From assembly GCF_009914755.1 (NCBI RefSeq), contig NC_060938.1: a DNA stretch of 64,000 nt; one strand, written 5' to 3'. The position numbers were made by a program, and so were the translations under genes. Positions within the stretch are counted from its first letter, which is position 1; each line of letters begins with the position of its first letter. The notes beneath the pieces are model-generated. The model was not told the origin of the DNA. It worked only from the letters and a program-made list of their open reading frames with translations, and searched no databases. This stretch comes from the human T2T-CHM13v2.0 reference genome, Homo sapiens. Positions 4,613 through 24,479 of this stretch are shown here, one piece after another.

Positions 4613-7600
4613 TCAATTCCCACCTATGAGTGAGAATATGCGGCATTTGGTTTTTTGTTCTTGCGATAGATCACTGAGAATGATGATTTCCAATTTCATC
4701 CATGTCCCTACAAAGGACATGAACTCATCATTTTTTATGGCTGCATAGTATTCCATGGTGTATATGTGCCACATTTTCTTAATCCAGTCTATCATTGTTG
4801 GACATTTGGGTTGGTTCCAAGTCTTTGCTATTGTGAATAGTGCCACAATAAACATACGTGTGCATGTGTCTTTATAGCAGCATGATTTATAGTCCTTTGG
4901 GTATATACCCAGTAATGGGATGGCTGGGTCAAATGGTATTTCTACTTCTAGATCCCTGAGGAATCGCCACACTGACTTCCACAAGGGTTGAACTAGTTTA
5001 CAGTCCCACCAACAGTGTAAAAGTGTCCCTATTTCTCCACATCCTCTCCAGCACCTGTTGTTTCCTGACTTTTTAATGATTGCCATTCTAACTGGTGTGA
5101 GATGGTATCTCATTGTGGTTTTGATTTGCATTTCTCTGATAGCCAGTGATGATGAGCATTTTTTCATGTGTTTTTTGGCTGCATAAATGTCTTCTTTTGA
5201 GAAGTGTCTGTTCATGTCCTTCGCCCACTTTTTGATGGGGTTGTTTGTTTTTTTCTTGTAAATTTGTTTGAGTTCATTGTAGATTCTGGATATTAGCCCT
5301 TTGTCAGATGAGTAGGTTGTGAAAATTTTCTCCCATTTTGTAGGTTGCCTGTTCACTCTGATGGTAGTTTCTTTTGCTGTGCAGAAGCTCTGTAGTTTAA
5401 TGAGATCCCATTTGTCAATTTTGACTTCTGTTGCCATTGCTTTTGGTGTTTTAGACATGAAGTCCTTGCCCATGCCTATGTCCTGAATGGTAATGCCTAG
5501 GTTTTCTTCTAGGGTTTTTATGGTTTTAGGTCTAACGTTTAAGTCTTTAATCCATCTTGAATTGATTTTTGTATAAGGTGTAAGGAAGGGATCCAGTTTC
5601 AGCTCTCTACATATGGCTAACCAGTTTTCCCAGCACCATTTATTAAATAGGGAATCCTTTCCCCATTGCTTGTTTTTCTCAGGTTTGTCAAAGATCAGAT
5701 AGTTGTAGATATACGGCGTTATTTCTGAGGGCTCTGTTCTGTTCCATTGATCTATATCTCTGTTTTGGTACCAGTACCATGCTGTTTTGGTTACTGTGGC
5801 CTTGTAGTATAGTTTGAAGTCAGATAGTGTGATGCCTCCAGCTTTGTTCTTTTGGCTTAGGAGTGACTTGGTGATGCGGGCTCTTTTTTAGTTCCATATG
5901 AACTTTAAAGTAGTTTTTTCCAATTCTGTGAAGAAAGGCATTGGTAGCTTGATGGGGATGGCATTGAATCTGTAAATTACCTTGGGCAGTATGGCCATTT
6001 TCACGATATTGATTCTTCCTACCCATGAGCATGGAATGTTCTTCCATTTGTTTGTATCCTCTTTTATTTCCTTGAGCAGTGGTTTGTAGTTCTCCTTGAA
6101 GAGGTCCTTCACATCCCTTGTAAGTTGGATTCCTAGGTATTTTATTCTCTTTGAAGCAATTGTGAATGGGAGTTCACTCATGATTTGGCTCTCTGTTTGT
6201 CTGTTGTTGGTGTATAAGAATGCCTGTGATTTTTGTACATTGATTTTGTATCCTGAGACTTTGCTGAAGTTGCTTATCAGCTTAAGGAGATTTTGGGCTG
6301 AGATGATGGGGTTTTCTAGATAAACAATCATGTCGTCTGCAAACAGGGACAATTTGACTTCCTCTTTTCCTAACTGAATACCCTTTATTTCCTTCTCCTG
6401 ACTGATTGCCCTGGCCAGAACTTCCAACACTATGTTGAATAGGAGCGGTGAGAGAGGGCATCCCTTTCTTGTGCCAGTTTTCAAAGGGAATGCTTCCAGT
6501 TTTTGCCCATTCGCTATGATATTGACTGTGGGTTTGTCATAGATAGCTCTTATTATTTTGAAATATGTCCCATCAATACCTAATTTATTGAGAGTTTTTA
6601 GCATGAAGGGTTGTTGAATTTTGTCAAAGGCTTTTTCTGCATCTATTGAGATAATCATGTGGTTTTTGTCTTTGGCTCTGTTTATATGCTGGATTACATT
6701 TATTAATTTGTGTATATTGAACCAGCCTTGAATCCCAGGGATGAAGCCCACTTGATCATGGTGGATAAGCTTTTTGATGTGCTGCTGGATTCGTTTTCCC
6801 AGTATTTTATTGAGGATTTTTGCATCAATGTTCATCAAGGATATTGGTCTAAAATTCTCTTTTTTTGTTGTTTCTCTGCCTGGCTTTGGTATCAGAATGA
6901 TGCTGGCCTCATAAAATGAGTTAGGGAGGATTCTCTCTTTTTCTGTTGATTGGAATAGTTTCAGAAGGAATGGTACCAGTTCCTCCTTGTACCTCTGGTA
7001 GAATTCAGCTGTGAATCCATCTGGTCCTGGACTCTTTTTGGTTGATAAGCTATTGATTATTGCCACAATTTCATCTCCTGTTATTTGTCTATTCAGAGAT
7101 TCAACTTCTTCCTGGTTTAGTCTTGGGAGAGTGTATGTGTTGAGGAATTTATCCATTTCTTCTAGATTTTCTAGTTTATTTGCGTAGAGGTGTTTGTAGT
7201 ATTCTCTGATGGTAGTTTGTATTTCTGTGGGATTGGTGGTGATATCCCCTTTATCATTTTTTATTGCCTCTATTTGATTCTTCTCTCTTTTTTTTCTTTA
7301 TTAGTCTTGCTAGCAGTCTATCAATTTTGTTGATCCTTTCAAAAAACCAGCTCCTGGATTCATTAATTTTTTGAAGGGTTTTTTGTGTCTCTATTTCCTT
7401 CAGTTCTGCTCTGATTTTAGTTATTTCTTGCCTTCTGCTAGCTTTTGAATGTGTTTGCTCTTGCTTTTCTAGTTCTTTTAATTGTGATGTTAGGGTGTCA
7501 ATTTTGGATCTTTCCTGCTTTCTCTTTTGGGCGTTTAGTGCTATAAATTTCCCTCTACACACTGCTTTGAATGAGTCCCAGAGATTCTGGTATGTTGTGT

Positions 7601-8436
7601 CTTTGTTCTCGTTGGTTTCAAAGAACATCTTTATTTCTGCCTTCATTTCGTTATGTACCCAGTAGTCATTCAGGAGCAGGTTGTTCAGTTTCCATGTAGT
7701 TGAGTGGTTTTGAGTGAGATTCTTAATCCTGAGTTCTAGTTTGATTGCACTGTGGTCTGAGAGATAGTTTGTTATAATTTTTGTTCTTTTACATTTGCTG
7801 AGGAGAGCTTTACTTCCAAGTATGTGGTCAATTTTGGAATAGGTGTGGTGCTGAAAAAAATGTATATTCTGTTGATTTGGGGTGGCGAGTTCTGTAGATG
7901 TCTATTAGGTCTGCTTGGTGCAGAGCTGAGTTCAATTCCTGGGTATCCTTGTTGACTTTCTGTCTCGTTGATCTGTCTAATGTTGACAGTGGGGTGTTAA
8001 AGTCTCCCATTATTAATGTGTGGGAGTCTAAGTCTCTTTGCAGGTCACTCAGGACTTGCTTTATGAATCTGGGTGCTCCTGTATTGGGTGCATATATATT
8101 TAGGATATTTAGCTCTTCTTGTTGAATTGATGCCTTTACCATTATGTAATGGCCTTCTTTGTCTCTTTTGATCTTTGTTGGTTTAAAGTCTGTTTTATCA
8201 GAAACTAGGATTGCAACCCCTGCCTTTTTTTGTTTTCCATTTGCTTGGTAGATCTTCCTCCATCCTTTTATTTTGAGCCTATGTCTGTTTCTGCACGTGA
8301 GATGGGTTTCCTGAATACAGCACACTGATGGGTCTTGACTCTTTATCCAATTTGCCAGTCTGTGTCTTTTAATTGGGGCATTTAGTCCATTTACATTTAA
8401 AGTTAATATTGTTATGTGTGAATGTGATCCTGTCAT
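4613..8436 (-). pseudogene. L1 ORF2p (endonuclease / reverse transcriptase), disrupted
   Basis: Fragments are 7828-8436 (MTGSHSHITILTLNVNGLN, APE endonuclease), 7254-7646, 5888-7156 (RT with FADD) and 4613-5473 (C-terminal Cys-rich region). They are separated by frameshifts and stops. Confidence 0.97.
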
Positions 8437-8499
8437 TATGATGTTAGCTGGTGATTTTGCTCGTTAGTTGATGCAGTTTCTTCCTAGTCTTGATGGTCT

Positions 8500-22378: not shown

Positions 22379-22735
22379 TTTTTCTGAATTTTATTTTCCT
22401 AGTATATACAGAAGATAATATTAGCCTCCAGATTATTGCATAGATTAAATGAAACATACATGTATAAACTTTTATTGTAGAACCTACCACATAAGTGGTA
22501 TCCAGTTAGTAGTATTAAAGTTGAAATATGTGATGCTTCAAGGCATCATTACACACAAAGTTGCTAGACATGCATTTTATTCTTACAACAAATCCGAACT
22601 AGGAAGGATAAATTTGATGGCCCCTCTTTTCATTGTGCATAGCAAAATGTTTTTATCAAGTGTATAACAGAAGGCATGATAATAGGTTCTTGTTAAATGA
22701 ATAAATGTTTCCATTGGTTAAAAAATAAATGCACA

Positions 22736-23016
22736 GGCCGGGTGCGGTGGCTCACGCCTGTAATCCCAGCACTTTGGGAGGCCGAGGCCGGTGGATCATG
22801 AGGTCAAGAGATCAAGACCATCCTGGCCAACATGGTGTAATCCCCTCTTTACTAAAAATACAAAAATTAGCTGGGCGCAGTAGCATGTGCCTGTATTCCC
22901 AGCTACTCGGGAGGCTGAGGCAGGAGAATCGCTTGAACCCGGGAGGCAGAGGTTGCAGGGGGCCGAGATTGTGCCACTGCACTCCAGCCTGGTGACAGAG
23001 AGAGATTACGTCAAAA
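22736..23016 (+). mobile_element. AluSc
   Basis: Diagnostics GAGGTCAAGAGATCAAGACCATCCTGGCCAAC and CCTGGTGACAGA. It is preceded by TT/AAAAAATAAATGCACA, and its A tail is almost absent. Confidence 0.93.
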
Positions 23017-24479
23017 GAAAAAAAGCTGGAGGCATCACGCTATCTGACTTCAAACTATACTACAAGGCTACAGTAACCAAAACAGCATGGTACTGGTACC
23101 AAAATAGAGATATAGATCAATGGAACAGAACAGAGCCCTCAGAAATAATGCCGTATATCTACAACTATCTGATCTTTGACAAACCTGAGAAAAACAAGCA
23201 ATGGGGAAAGGATTCCCTATTTAATAAATGGTGCTGGGAAAACTGGCTAGCCATATGTAGAAAGCTGAAACTGGATCCCTTCCTTACACCTTATACAAAA
23301 ATCAATTCAAGATGGATTAAAGACTTAAACGTTAGACCTAAAACCATAAAAACCCTAGAAGAAAACCTAGGCATTACCATCAGGACATAGGCATGGGCAA
23401 GGACTTCATGTCTAAAACACCAAAAGCAATGGCAACAAAAGCCAAAATTGACAAATGGGATCTAATTAAACTAAAGAGCTTCTGCACAGCAAAAGAAACT
23501 ACCTTCAGAGTGAACAGGCAACCTACAAAATGGGAGAAAATTTTCACAACCTACTCATCTGACAAAGGGCTAATATCCAGAATCTACAACAAACTCAAAC
23601 AAATTTACAAGAAAAAAACAACCCCATCAAAAAGTGGGCGAAGGACATGAACAGACACTTCTCAAAAGAAGACATTTATGCAGCCAAAAAACACATGAAA
23701 AAATGCTCATCATCACTGGCTATCAGAGAAATGCAAATCAAAACCACAGTGAGATACCATCTCACACCAGTTAGAATGGCAATCATTAAAAAGTCAGCAA
23801 ACAACAGGTGCTGGAGAGGATGTGGAGAAATAGGGACACTTTTACACTGTTGGTGGGACTGTAAACTAGTTCAACCCTTGTGGAAGTCAGTGTGGCGATT
23901 CCTCAGGGATCTAGAACTAGAAATACCATTTGACCCAGCCATCCCATTACTGGGTATATACCCAAAGGACTATAAATCATGCTGCTATAAAGACACATGC
24001 ACACGTATGTTTATTGTGGCACTATTCACAATAGCAAAGACTTGGAACCAACCCAAATGTCCAACAATGATAGACTGGATTAAGAAAATGTGGCACATAT
24101 ACACCATGGAATACTATGCAGCCATAAAAAATGATGAGTTCATGTCCTTTGTAGGGACATGGATGAAATTGGAAATCATCATTCTCAGTGAACTATCACA
24201 AGAACAAAAAACCAAACACCGCATATTCTCACTCATAGGTGGGAATTGAACAATGAGAACACATGGACACAGGAAGGGGAACATCACACTCTGGGGACTG
24301 TTTTGGGGTGGGGGGAGGCAGGAGGGATAGCTTTAGGAGATACACCTAATGCTAAATGACAAGTTAATGGGTGCAGCACACCAGCATGGCACATGTATAC
24401 ATATGTAACTAACCTGCACATTGTGCCCATGTACCCTAAAACTTAAAGTATAATAATAATAAAATAAAAATAAATAAAA
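23013..24479 (+). mobile_element. 5'-truncated L1PA3 (ORF2 C-terminus plus 3' UTR)
   Basis: ORF-track fragments [15 protein letters not shown]... to ...FSLIGGN*. The 3' UTR has L1PA3-type states (GAGAACAC, TTAGGAG, TAAATGAC, TTAATGGG). The tail spans 24451-24479. Confidence 0.95.

What the first reader, a model, noticed from the sequence alone, without database searches (positions are those of the whole stretch)
4613..24249. Two inverted L1 copies share private substitutions, suggesting gene conversion
Seen: 4613-5845 (minus) and 23025-24249 (plus) are homologous. They share six non-CpG substitutions absent from the L1PA2/L1HS consensus as I recall it: ctaTctgac (5824/23043), ccgTatatc (5713/23154), ggcTatcag (5141/23721), ataggGacac (5027/23835), aaccCttg (4985/23877) and tcagtGa (4672/24190). 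By hand alignment they differ at about 22 positions over about 1.2 kb, but at only 3 positions over 4681-5220 vs 23642-24181. The 3' UTRs keep different subfamily states (gagaTcac/gagaAcac, ttGggag/ttAggag, taGatgac/taAatgac, ttaGtggg/ttaAtggg). Inference: two independent insertions of different age were homogenised across the ORF2 3' region by non-allelic gene conversion.
Basis: partly seen in the sequence, partly recalled or inferred. Interest (0 to 1): 0.85.

Follow-up and report, generated by a model that had tools for sequence, protein, structure and literature searches.

The report
Gene conversion between two neighbouring L1s
Two dead L1 retrotransposon copies of different age, lying head-to-head about 17 kb apart in a gene desert on human chromosome 14, have exchanged about half a kilobase of sequence by non-allelic gene conversion. 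This is a clean example of a process that is already known.

Summary
Copy A (full-length L1, minus strand, 4378-10415) and copy B (5'-truncated L1, plus strand, 23025-~24478) differ at 22 events over the ORF2 3' region. Only 3 of these lie in 4681-5220.

Of the six shared variants, four are truly rare: 2, 2, 0 and 0 of 58 unlinked copies. One is a minor lineage state (8/58) and one is common (25/58).

Across the whole genome, the pair 5027G+4672G occurs in 2 copies against 4915 with the usual states. The pair 5824T+5713T occurs in 2 against 2609. In both cases the two copies are A and B.

None of 841 cross-group control pairs shares more than one such rare state; A and B share four.

Trees are mosaic. 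A and B are sisters in 5246-4671 (99/93). They are not sisters in the 5' part. In the 3' UTR they fall in different subfamily clades, and the AU test rejects joining them (p=0.012).

Copy A keeps a perfect 15-bp target-site duplication, so there was no crossover or inversion.

Best reading: non-crossover interlocus gene conversion, with a tract of 470-576 bp and two further shared sites upstream. The direction is unresolved. Ape orthologues could not be checked. This is a new instance of a known kind and of modest interest.

The parts
4378..10415 (-). Copy A: full-length L1 (younger type: AAAC present, 'young' 3' UTR states), with a poly(A) tail at 4378-4399. Both reading frames are interrupted.
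   Evidence: Sequence read. The 5' end starts ggattttggagccaagatggcc at 10415. ORFs of at least 120 aa are only 286, 422, 130 and 202 aa. Its 29 fetched nearest relatives all carry AAAC.
10416..10430 (-). 5' target-site duplication of copy A (AACTTTGGAATACCT)
   Evidence: Read directly; identical to the 3' copy.
4363..4377 (-). 3' target-site duplication of copy A (AACTTTGGAATACCT)
   Evidence: Read directly. The matched pair shows one intact insertion and no net L1-L1 crossover or inversion.
23025..24478 (+). Copy B: 5'-truncated L1 (older type: no AAAC, 'old' 3' UTR states). It has an A/T-rich tail whose 3' limit is approximate, and a 1-bp deletion at 23379/23380.
   Evidence: B lies inside a 21-row clade of older-type copies in the 3' UTR tree (100/96). 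Its own target-site duplication is ambiguous, with only 7-nt A-rich matches.
4671..5246 (-). Main conversion tract in A at its maximal extent. The minimal extent is 4672-5141.
   Evidence: 3 differences from B in 576 bp. B ranks 1 of 59 rows, with the next closest at 7 differences. B is the best non-self hit genome-wide among 40 scored of 2155 candidates. A and B are sisters at 99/93. A has no own private state in 5391-4671, against about 10.8 expected.
23616..24191 (+). Main conversion tract in B at its maximal extent. The minimal extent is 23721-24190.
   Evidence: Same calls as for the tract in A. It carries 23721T, 23835G, 23877C and 24190G, all shared with A, plus B-only states at 23749 and 23798.
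5247..5250 (-). AAAC indel kept by A and absent from B (between 23615 and 23616). It marks the 5' limit of the main tract.
   Evidence: Present in 29/29 rows of the A group at three of its four columns and 28/29 at the fourth; absent from 29/29 rows of the B group.
5713..5824 (-). Two further shared rare states in A, 5824T and 5713T (B 23043T, 23154T), interspersed with private differences. Either an older conversion or a patchy one.
   Evidence: Each is found in 2/58 unlinked copies. Together they occur only in A and B genome-wide, against 2609 copies with C..C. The 5' part tree does not join A and B.
4400..4670 (-). Unconverted 3' end and 3' UTR of A (B 24192-24445). Each copy keeps its own subfamily states here.
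   Evidence: 25 differences. The partner ranks 46th (for A) and 59th (for B) of 59. There are no shared rare states. The AU test rejects an A+B clade, p=0.012.
22737..23024 (+). Alu element abutting the 5' truncation point of copy B. It is not part of the homology with A.
   Evidence: Read. The inverted-repeat arms stop at 23014-23025.

Best explanation
Two L1 elements inserted independently and at different times, in opposite orientation about 17 kb apart. A is a full-length element of a younger L1PA type. B is a 1.45-kb 3' fragment of an older type. Later, a DNA break in one copy was repaired using the other copy on the same chromosome as template, without a crossover (non-allelic, interlocus gene conversion).

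This copied a tract of 470-576 bp of the ORF2 3' region (A 5246-4671 = B 23616-24191). The donor's private mutations went with it, so both copies now carry 5141T-5027G-4985C-4672G.

Two further shared rare states upstream (5824T, 5713T) point to a second, older event or to patchy mismatch repair.

What is shown: independent origin, exclusive sharing of rare states, mosaic phylogeny and absence of a crossover. What is inferred: the repair mechanism, the number of events, the direction (weak lean towards B donating to A) and the date. Three differences in 576 bp suggest a few million years, using a recalled ape substitution rate of about 0.5-1.1e-9 per site per year.
For: (1) Exclusive sharing. 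Four states shared by A and B occur in 2, 2, 0 and 0 of 58 unlinked copies, and no unlinked copy has more than one of them.

(2) Whole-genome exact-pattern counts:
- 5027G+4672G: 2 copies, both here, against 4915 with A..A.
- 5824T+5713T: 2 copies, both here, against 2609 with C..C.
- 5141T+4985C: 9 copies including these two.
- Single states are rare and dispersed: 151 matches for the 25-mer with 5027G, of which the part of the list that was printed (100 places) shows about 45 in one chr8 tandem array; 37 for 4672G; 368 for 5824T; 52 for 5713T.

(3) Control pairs. 0 of 841 cross-group pairs share 2 or more states at the <=2/58 threshold. A and B share 4.

(4) Mosaic relationship. Differences between A and B are 14 in the 5' part (partner ranks 11th and 9th of 59), 3 in the mid part (rank 1 for both, next closest 7 and 8) and 25 in the 3' part (ranks 46 and 59).

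(5) Trees. A and B are sisters in 5845-4671 (99/95) and in 5246-4671 (99/93), but not in 5845-5251. In 4670-4400 B sits in an older-type clade (100/96), and holding A and B together costs 32.5 lnL, p-AU 0.012.

(6) A has 6 own private states in 5845-5392, 0 in 5391-4671 and 9 in 4670-4400. The controls put 42% of rare events in the middle region, which gives about 10.8 expected there (the expectation is my arithmetic).

(7) The perfect 15-bp target-site duplication of A shows that no net crossover took place.

(8) The kind is documented. Non-allelic conversion between neighbouring Alus is elevated within about 10 kb (passages of PMC6598467, and PMC8230782). An intrachromosomal L1 conversion, and break repair by conversion among LINEs, are described in passages of PMC1920257.
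Against: - No orthologous sequence from another ape, and no second human assembly, could be examined. The pre-conversion state was therefore not seen, and an assembly-specific or individual-specific origin is not excluded.
- Identity alone is a weak argument. In the tract the best unlinked copies differ from A by only about 5-7 sites against 3 for B, because this ORF2 region is conserved between subfamilies.
- The tract is not clean. 4945 differs, with A holding a state seen in 6/29 of its own group, and B has two private states inside the tract (5113, 5064). This requires either post-conversion mutations or discontinuous tracts.
- The 5' part does not join A and B in a tree despite the two shared sites.
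- The 58 comparison copies are the tool's best-scored candidates (40 scored of 7553 and of 4239), not a random sample.
- Exact-match patterns miss copies that have extra changes inside the motifs.
- My permutation test (p=0.025 for the perfect fragment 4944-4672, p=0.0003 with a mismatch penalty) ignores the naturally faster-diverging 3' UTR.
Confidence: 0.84

Rival explanations
1. Both copies descend from one rare L1 source lineage that already carried the shared variants, and they landed near each other by chance.
For: Each rare state does exist elsewhere in the genome at low frequency. 5141T is a real minor-lineage state, found in 8/29 of B's relatives.
Against: No other copy in 3.1 Gb carries either pair of rare states, so the supposed lineage would have exactly two offspring, 17 kb apart. 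The copies differ at the AAAC indel (29/29 against 0/29) and at the subfamily states of the 3' UTR. The AU test rejects joining them there.
Confidence: 0.04
2. Parallel mutation at hypermutable sites, or plain coincidence.
For: Five of the six shared changes are transitions. 5824T is fairly frequent, with 368 17-mer matches genome-wide.
Against: None of the sites is a CpG (read). The frequencies in unlinked copies are 0-3%. 0 of 841 control pairs shares 2 or more such states, against 4 here. Coincidence would not explain why A has no own private states in the same stretch, nor the mosaic trees.
Confidence: 0.03
3. Assembly or polishing artefact, or a change private to the sequenced cell line, that copied reads of one L1 onto the other.
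For: Only one assembly was available, and repeats are where polishing errors occur.
Against: The copies are only 96% identical overall and are short (1.5 kb of homology) beside unique flanks. The tract still holds 3 differences and is bounded by retained private states, which looks like an old event and not like read mis-assignment. That long-read assemblies span such repeats is recalled, not tested.
Confidence: 0.04
4. Both copies were converted by a third L1 that has since been lost, or one copy was converted in several steps in both directions.
For: The sharing is patchy: 5824 and 5713 stand apart from the main tract, 4945 is discordant, and the direction is unresolved.
Against: No third copy with the haplotype exists in this genome. 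This is a variant of the same mechanism and not a true alternative.
Confidence: 0.05

Closest known systems
Non-allelic gene conversion between neighbouring Alu elements (Aleshin and Zhi 2010; Kass et al. 1995; Roy et al. 2000). These were seen only as cited in passages of PMC6598467 and PMC8230782; the Aleshin and Zhi paper itself is not held.
   Same: Dispersed retrotransposon copies of different subfamily exchange short tracts. The signal is shared non-diagnostic mutations between neighbours and mosaic subfamily states. The rate falls with distance.
   Different: Here the partners are L1s, the tract (0.47-0.58 kb) is longer than a whole Alu, the spacing (about 17 kb) lies beyond the roughly 10 kb range quoted for Alu, and the copies are inverted.
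[quoted passage not shown] 2000), and the intrachromosomal conversion proposed at locus NCLI34. Both were seen as passages or reference entries in PMC1920257.
   Same: The same element family and the same proposed mechanism: homologous repair with a paralogous L1 as template, without a crossover.
   Different: Those cases are experimental, or were inferred from an inserted foreign segment. Here the inference rests on private substitutions shared by two fixed, old, linked copies.
Interlocus gene conversion between duplicated genes or segmental duplications (concerted evolution), as reviewed in PMC6598467 (passages) and in PMC3924818 (seen in a search listing only).
   Same: Reduced divergence within a tract, tree incongruence along the sequence, and dependence on proximity and identity.
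   Different: The paralogues here arose by separate retrotransposition events, not by duplication of a locus. Homology therefore ends at the element borders, and subfamily markers give an internal control.

Membership tests
Non-allelic (interlocus) gene conversion between dispersed repeats | The two copies have independent origins and are not a local duplication of each other | tested here: met
   A is full-length with a matched 15-bp target-site duplication. B is 5'-truncated beside an Alu and inverted. The AAAC indel and the 3' UTR subfamily states differ.
Non-allelic (interlocus) gene conversion between dispersed repeats | Derived states shared by the two paralogues and absent from the rest of the family | tested here: met
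   Four states are found in 0-2 of 58 unlinked copies. The paired states are unique to A and B genome-wide: 2 against 4915 and 2 against 2609. 0 of 841 control pairs shares 2 or more.
Non-allelic (interlocus) gene conversion between dispersed repeats | Mosaic phylogeny: the paralogues are sisters inside a bounded tract and separate outside it | tested here: met
   The mid part gives sisters at 99/93, the 5' part does not, and in the 3' part the AU test rejects the pair, p=0.012. The partner ranks 1st in the mid part, 9th-11th in the 5' part and 46th-59th in the 3' part.
Non-allelic (interlocus) gene conversion between dispersed repeats | Non-reciprocal transfer with an identifiable donor and acceptor | tested here: inconclusive
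   5141T and 4985C are commoner among B's relatives (8/29 and 18/29 against 0/29 and 7/29), and A lacks own private states in the tract. Both points lean towards B donating to A. Against this, 4945 and B's private 5113 and 5064 fit neither direction cleanly.
Non-allelic (interlocus) gene conversion between dispersed repeats | Outgroup orthologues show the pre-conversion state | not testable with these tools
   Only this one human assembly is held. No other primate genome is available.
Non-allelic (interlocus) gene conversion between dispersed repeats | No associated crossover (for inverted repeats, no inversion of the spacer) | tested here: met
   A's two target-site duplicates still flank one full-length element. 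B's duplication is ambiguous.
   No repeat library is held. Shown here only in relative terms: A groups with copies that have AAAC and the 'young' UTR states, and B with copies that lack AAAC and have the 'old' UTR states. The B group also has more rare states per copy (22.5 against 9.6 over 1466 columns). Any name such as L1PA2-3 for A or L1PA4-6 for B would be recalled, not tested.

The most novel reading that the evidence does not exclude
The pair is a recurrent conversion site. An older exchange left the two isolated shared sites at 5824 and 5713. A much later one replaced about 0.5 kb of the younger element with sequence from the older, dead fragment. This later event is recent enough to be human-lineage-specific or even still polymorphic, and the same inverted pair might also carry a polymorphic 17-kb inversion in other haplotypes. 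If so, old L1 fragments would be rewriting younger full-length elements at a distance and divergence (17 kb, 96%) beyond what has been quantified for Alu. That would mean L1 ages and subfamily calls based on divergence are measurably biased near other L1s.
Probability: 0.2. Interest if true: 0.45.

Novelty: new member of a known kind. Interest (0 to 1): 0.3.

Why it matters
This is a well-controlled single-genome demonstration that fixed, inactive L1 copies of different subfamily still exchange sequence with near neighbours. Such exchange distorts divergence-based dating and subfamily assignment of individual elements. It can carry mutations between elements. It also marks inverted L1 pairs that are engaged in homologous repair and so are candidates for inversion by non-allelic recombination.

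The locus is a gene desert with no annotated gene or functional element, so no direct functional consequence is expected. The phenomenon itself is established for Alu and has been reported for LINEs, so the value is as a clean example and not as a discovery.

Tried and rejected
- The genome search does not take a window reference as a pattern, so short motifs were typed instead.
- B does not appear among the 40 scored matches of the search with A, nor A in the search with B. I first read this as lower similarity. It is a sampling effect: 40 were scored of 7553 and of 4239 candidates. In the alignment B is in fact A's closest row over the ORF2 part, with 22 differences against 24 for the next row.
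- B's target-site duplication could not be settled; only 7-nt A-rich matches were found.
Their subfamily, which might have settled the direction of transfer, is therefore unknown.
- The GENECONV-like permutation was kept only as weak support, because it ignores rate differences between ORF2 and the 3' UTR.
- RNA editing was considered and dropped. The APOBEC-type change (G to A on the sense strand, a recalled signature) is not among the six shared changes. The two A-to-G changes are too rare in other copies to be editing hot spots.
- A crossover or inversion between the two L1s was rejected on A's intact target-site duplication.
- The subfamilies were not named, for lack of a repeat library.
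- The Aleshin and Zhi paper is not held.

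
Full report
**What is there**

The window is human chr14 (T2T-CHM13) in a gene desert. Copy A is a full-length L1 on the minus strand (4378-10415). It has a poly(A) tail and a perfect 15-bp target-site duplication, AACTTTGGAATACCT, at 10430-10416 and 4377-4363 (read). Its reading frames are interrupted: the only ORFs of at least 120 aa are 286, 422, 130 and 202 aa.

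Copy B is a 5'-truncated L1 on the plus strand (23025 to about 24478). It starts directly after the A-tail of an Alu at 22737-23024. The two copies are inverted relative to each other. Homology is confined to the last 1.48 kb of the element: 96.0% over 1480 columns, with inverted arms 17.2-18.4 kb apart for the three ORF2-region pairs.

**Checking the observation**

I fetched the copies that the whole-genome search scored best for each query. There were 29 unlinked loci for A (L002-L030) and 29 for B (L032-L060). These come from 40 scored of 7553 candidates and 40 scored of 4239. The two self loci, L001 and L031, were dropped. All rows were aligned with A and B, giving 60 rows and 1518 columns.

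- A and B differ at 22 events in 5845-4613. Only 5113, 5064 and 4945 fall in 4681-5220.
- Their frequencies in the 58 unlinked copies are: 5824T 2, 5713T 2, 5141T 8 (all among B's relatives), 5027G 0, 4985C 25, 4672G 0.
- So four are rare, one is a minor-lineage state and one is a common polymorphism.
- No unlinked copy has more than one of the four rare states. None has 5141T together with 4985C.

**Is it more than chance, or a lineage marker?**

A and B share four states carried by at most 2 of the 58 other copies. Among 841 control pairs that take one relative of A and one relative of B, 787 share none, 54 share one and none shares two or more. Among 812 within-group pairs the maximum is 3.

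Exact-pattern scans of the whole 3.1-Gb genome give:

| Pattern | Copies genome-wide |
|---|---|
| 5027G with 4672G | 2, both here |
| usual A..A at the same two sites | 4915 |
| 5824T with 5713T | 2, both here |
| usual C..C at the same two sites | 2609 |
| 5141T with 4985C | 9, including these two |
| 5027G alone (25-mer) | 151; about 45 of the 100 places printed lie in one chr8 tandem array |
| 4672G alone (17-mer) | 37 |
| 5824T alone (17-mer) | 368 |
| 5713T alone (17-mer) | 52 |

The single states are individually rare and dispersed. Exact matching misses copies with other changes inside the motifs, but a lineage of any size would still have produced some matches.

**Mosaic structure**

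Pairwise differences and ranks among 59 rows:

| Part | A-B differences | Rank of the partner (for A, for B) | Note |
|---|---|---|---|
| 5' part, 5845-5251 | 14 | 11th, 9th | |
| Mid part, 5246-4671 | 3 | 1st, 1st | next closest rows differ by 7 and 8 |
| 3' part, 4670-4400 | 25 | 46th, 59th | |

Using A's mid part as a genome-wide query, B is the best non-self match: 1026 bits against 1009 for the next, with 40 scored of 2155 candidates. The margin is small because this ORF2 stretch is conserved between subfamilies. Identity alone would not carry the case.

Maximum-likelihood trees agree with the ranks.
- A and B are sisters in 5845-4671 (ultrafast bootstrap/SH-aLRT 99/95) and in 5246-4671 (99/93).
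- They are not sisters in 5845-5251, where B pairs with one of its own relatives (98/83).
- In 4670-4400 B sits inside a 21-row clade of older-type copies (100/96). Forcing A and B together costs 32.5 log-likelihood units, p-AU 0.012.

An AAAC indel at 5250-5247, present in all 29 of A's relatives (28 of 29 at one of its four columns) and absent from 29/29 of B's, is retained by each copy and bounds the tract on the 5' side. On the 3' side the shared 4672G is followed at 4670 by a state private to A.

A simple GENECONV-like permutation gives p=0.025 for the longest perfect fragment (4944-4672) and p=0.0003 for 5717-4672 with a mismatch penalty. This test ignores the faster 3' UTR, so it is weak support only.

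**Private mutations**

A has 6 own rare states in 5845-5392, none in 5391-4671 and 9 events in 4670-4400. The only rare states A has in the middle are the ones it shares with B. In the 58 controls, 42% of rare events fall in that middle region. About 10.8 would therefore be expected from A's 15 flank events (my arithmetic).

B has an ordinary load in the middle region, 7 against a group mean of 9.6. Together with 5141T and 4985C being commoner among B's relatives, this leans towards the older fragment B having overwritten part of the younger element A. However, 4945 (where A holds a state seen in 6/29 of its own group) and B's private 5113G and 5064C lie inside the tract. These need either later mutation or a discontinuous tract. 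I leave the direction open.

**Mechanism**

Independent insertion of the two elements is shown by:
- A's matched target-site duplication,
- the different truncation and orientation,
- the indel and the 3' UTR subfamily states.

Exclusive sharing of rare states in a bounded tract between linked paralogues is the signature of non-allelic gene conversion. Because A's target-site duplicates still flank one full-length element, there was no net crossover, which between inverted repeats would have inverted the 17-kb spacer and swapped the element ends.

The repair pathway is inferred, not shown: break repair by synthesis-dependent strand annealing or a similar route, with mismatch repair of heteroduplex explaining the patchiness. 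The two isolated shared sites at 5824 and 5713 are significant on their own. They are unique genome-wide as a pair, and no control pair shares two such states. But they sit among private differences of both copies, so they suggest an earlier event or patchy repair.

Three differences in 576 bp, with a recalled ape substitution rate of roughly 0.5-1.1e-9 per site per year, put the main event a few million years back, with wide error. Whether it predates the human-chimpanzee split cannot be told from one genome.

**Rivals**

- A shared rare source lineage is contradicted by the genome-wide uniqueness of the haplotype and by the subfamily differences.
- Parallel mutation is contradicted by the control pairs, the low single-site frequencies and the mosaic trees.
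- An assembly artefact cannot be excluded without a second assembly. It fits poorly with a tract that still has three differences and sharp borders at retained private states.
- A lost third donor, or multi-step exchange, is a variant of the same mechanism.

**Comparison with what is known**

Non-allelic conversion between transposable-element copies is documented, mainly for Alu.
- It is described as dependent on distance and identity, and as elevated within about 10 kb (passages of PMC6598467, and of PMC8230782).
- PMC8230782 also notes that old elements can overwrite young ones, and that divergence-based ages are distorted.
- For LINEs, passages of PMC1920257 describe an intrachromosomal L1 conversion and cite break repair by conversion among endogenous LINEs in mouse cells.
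- A 2026 preprint lists gene conversion among the processes that blur L1 histories (passage of PMC13192797).

I did not find, and did not specifically search for, a description of this particular locus. My three literature searches were about the phenomenon. Supplements were not consulted.

**Verdict**

It is a new instance of a known kind, in a region without annotated function, and of modest interest. The decisive step left is the comparison with ape orthologues and other human haplotypes.

Noticed in passing
G000:C8:86.20-86.94 Mb (outside the window; places listed): About 45 of the matches to the 25-mer carrying 5027G that were printed (100 of the 151 places) lie in one tandem array on chromosome 8, spaced about 12.19 kb apart in blocks of both orientations. 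An L1 fragment carrying that state has been amplified there as part of a larger repeat unit. This inflates the genome-wide count of that single variant.
   Followed up: no
L032, L035, L036, L039, L041, L046 (rows): Several relatives of B lack the AAAC indel but carry the 'young' 3' UTR states. The family therefore shows at least three steps: old UTR without AAAC, young UTR without AAAC, and young UTR with AAAC. A and B lie at the two ends of this series. Subfamily names were not assigned.
   Followed up: partly
window 4532-4538 (minus strand): Copy A has a private 7-bp insertion (GGGGGTC in the element's own, minus-strand sense) in the G-rich stretch of its 3' UTR. It is absent from all 58 unlinked copies and from B.
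   Followed up: no
window 22737-23024 and 23025: An Alu's A-tail abuts the 5' truncation point of copy B exactly. A 10-nt A-rich match (AAAAATAAAT) links the sequence just upstream of the Alu with the sequence in B's tail region, which may mean that B inserted into the Alu's tail. This is unresolved.
   Followed up: partly
window 28462-28665: A third, much older L1 3' fragment, 74% complementary to A 4554-4757. It is too diverged to be a conversion partner.
   Followed up: no
window 23379/23380, 23590-23591 and 4644-4645: Copy B has a private 1-bp deletion and a private adjacent double substitution (CA for TG). Copy A has a private adjacent double substitution (TG for CA) just 3' of the tract. 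The tandem double changes were not examined further.
   Followed up: no
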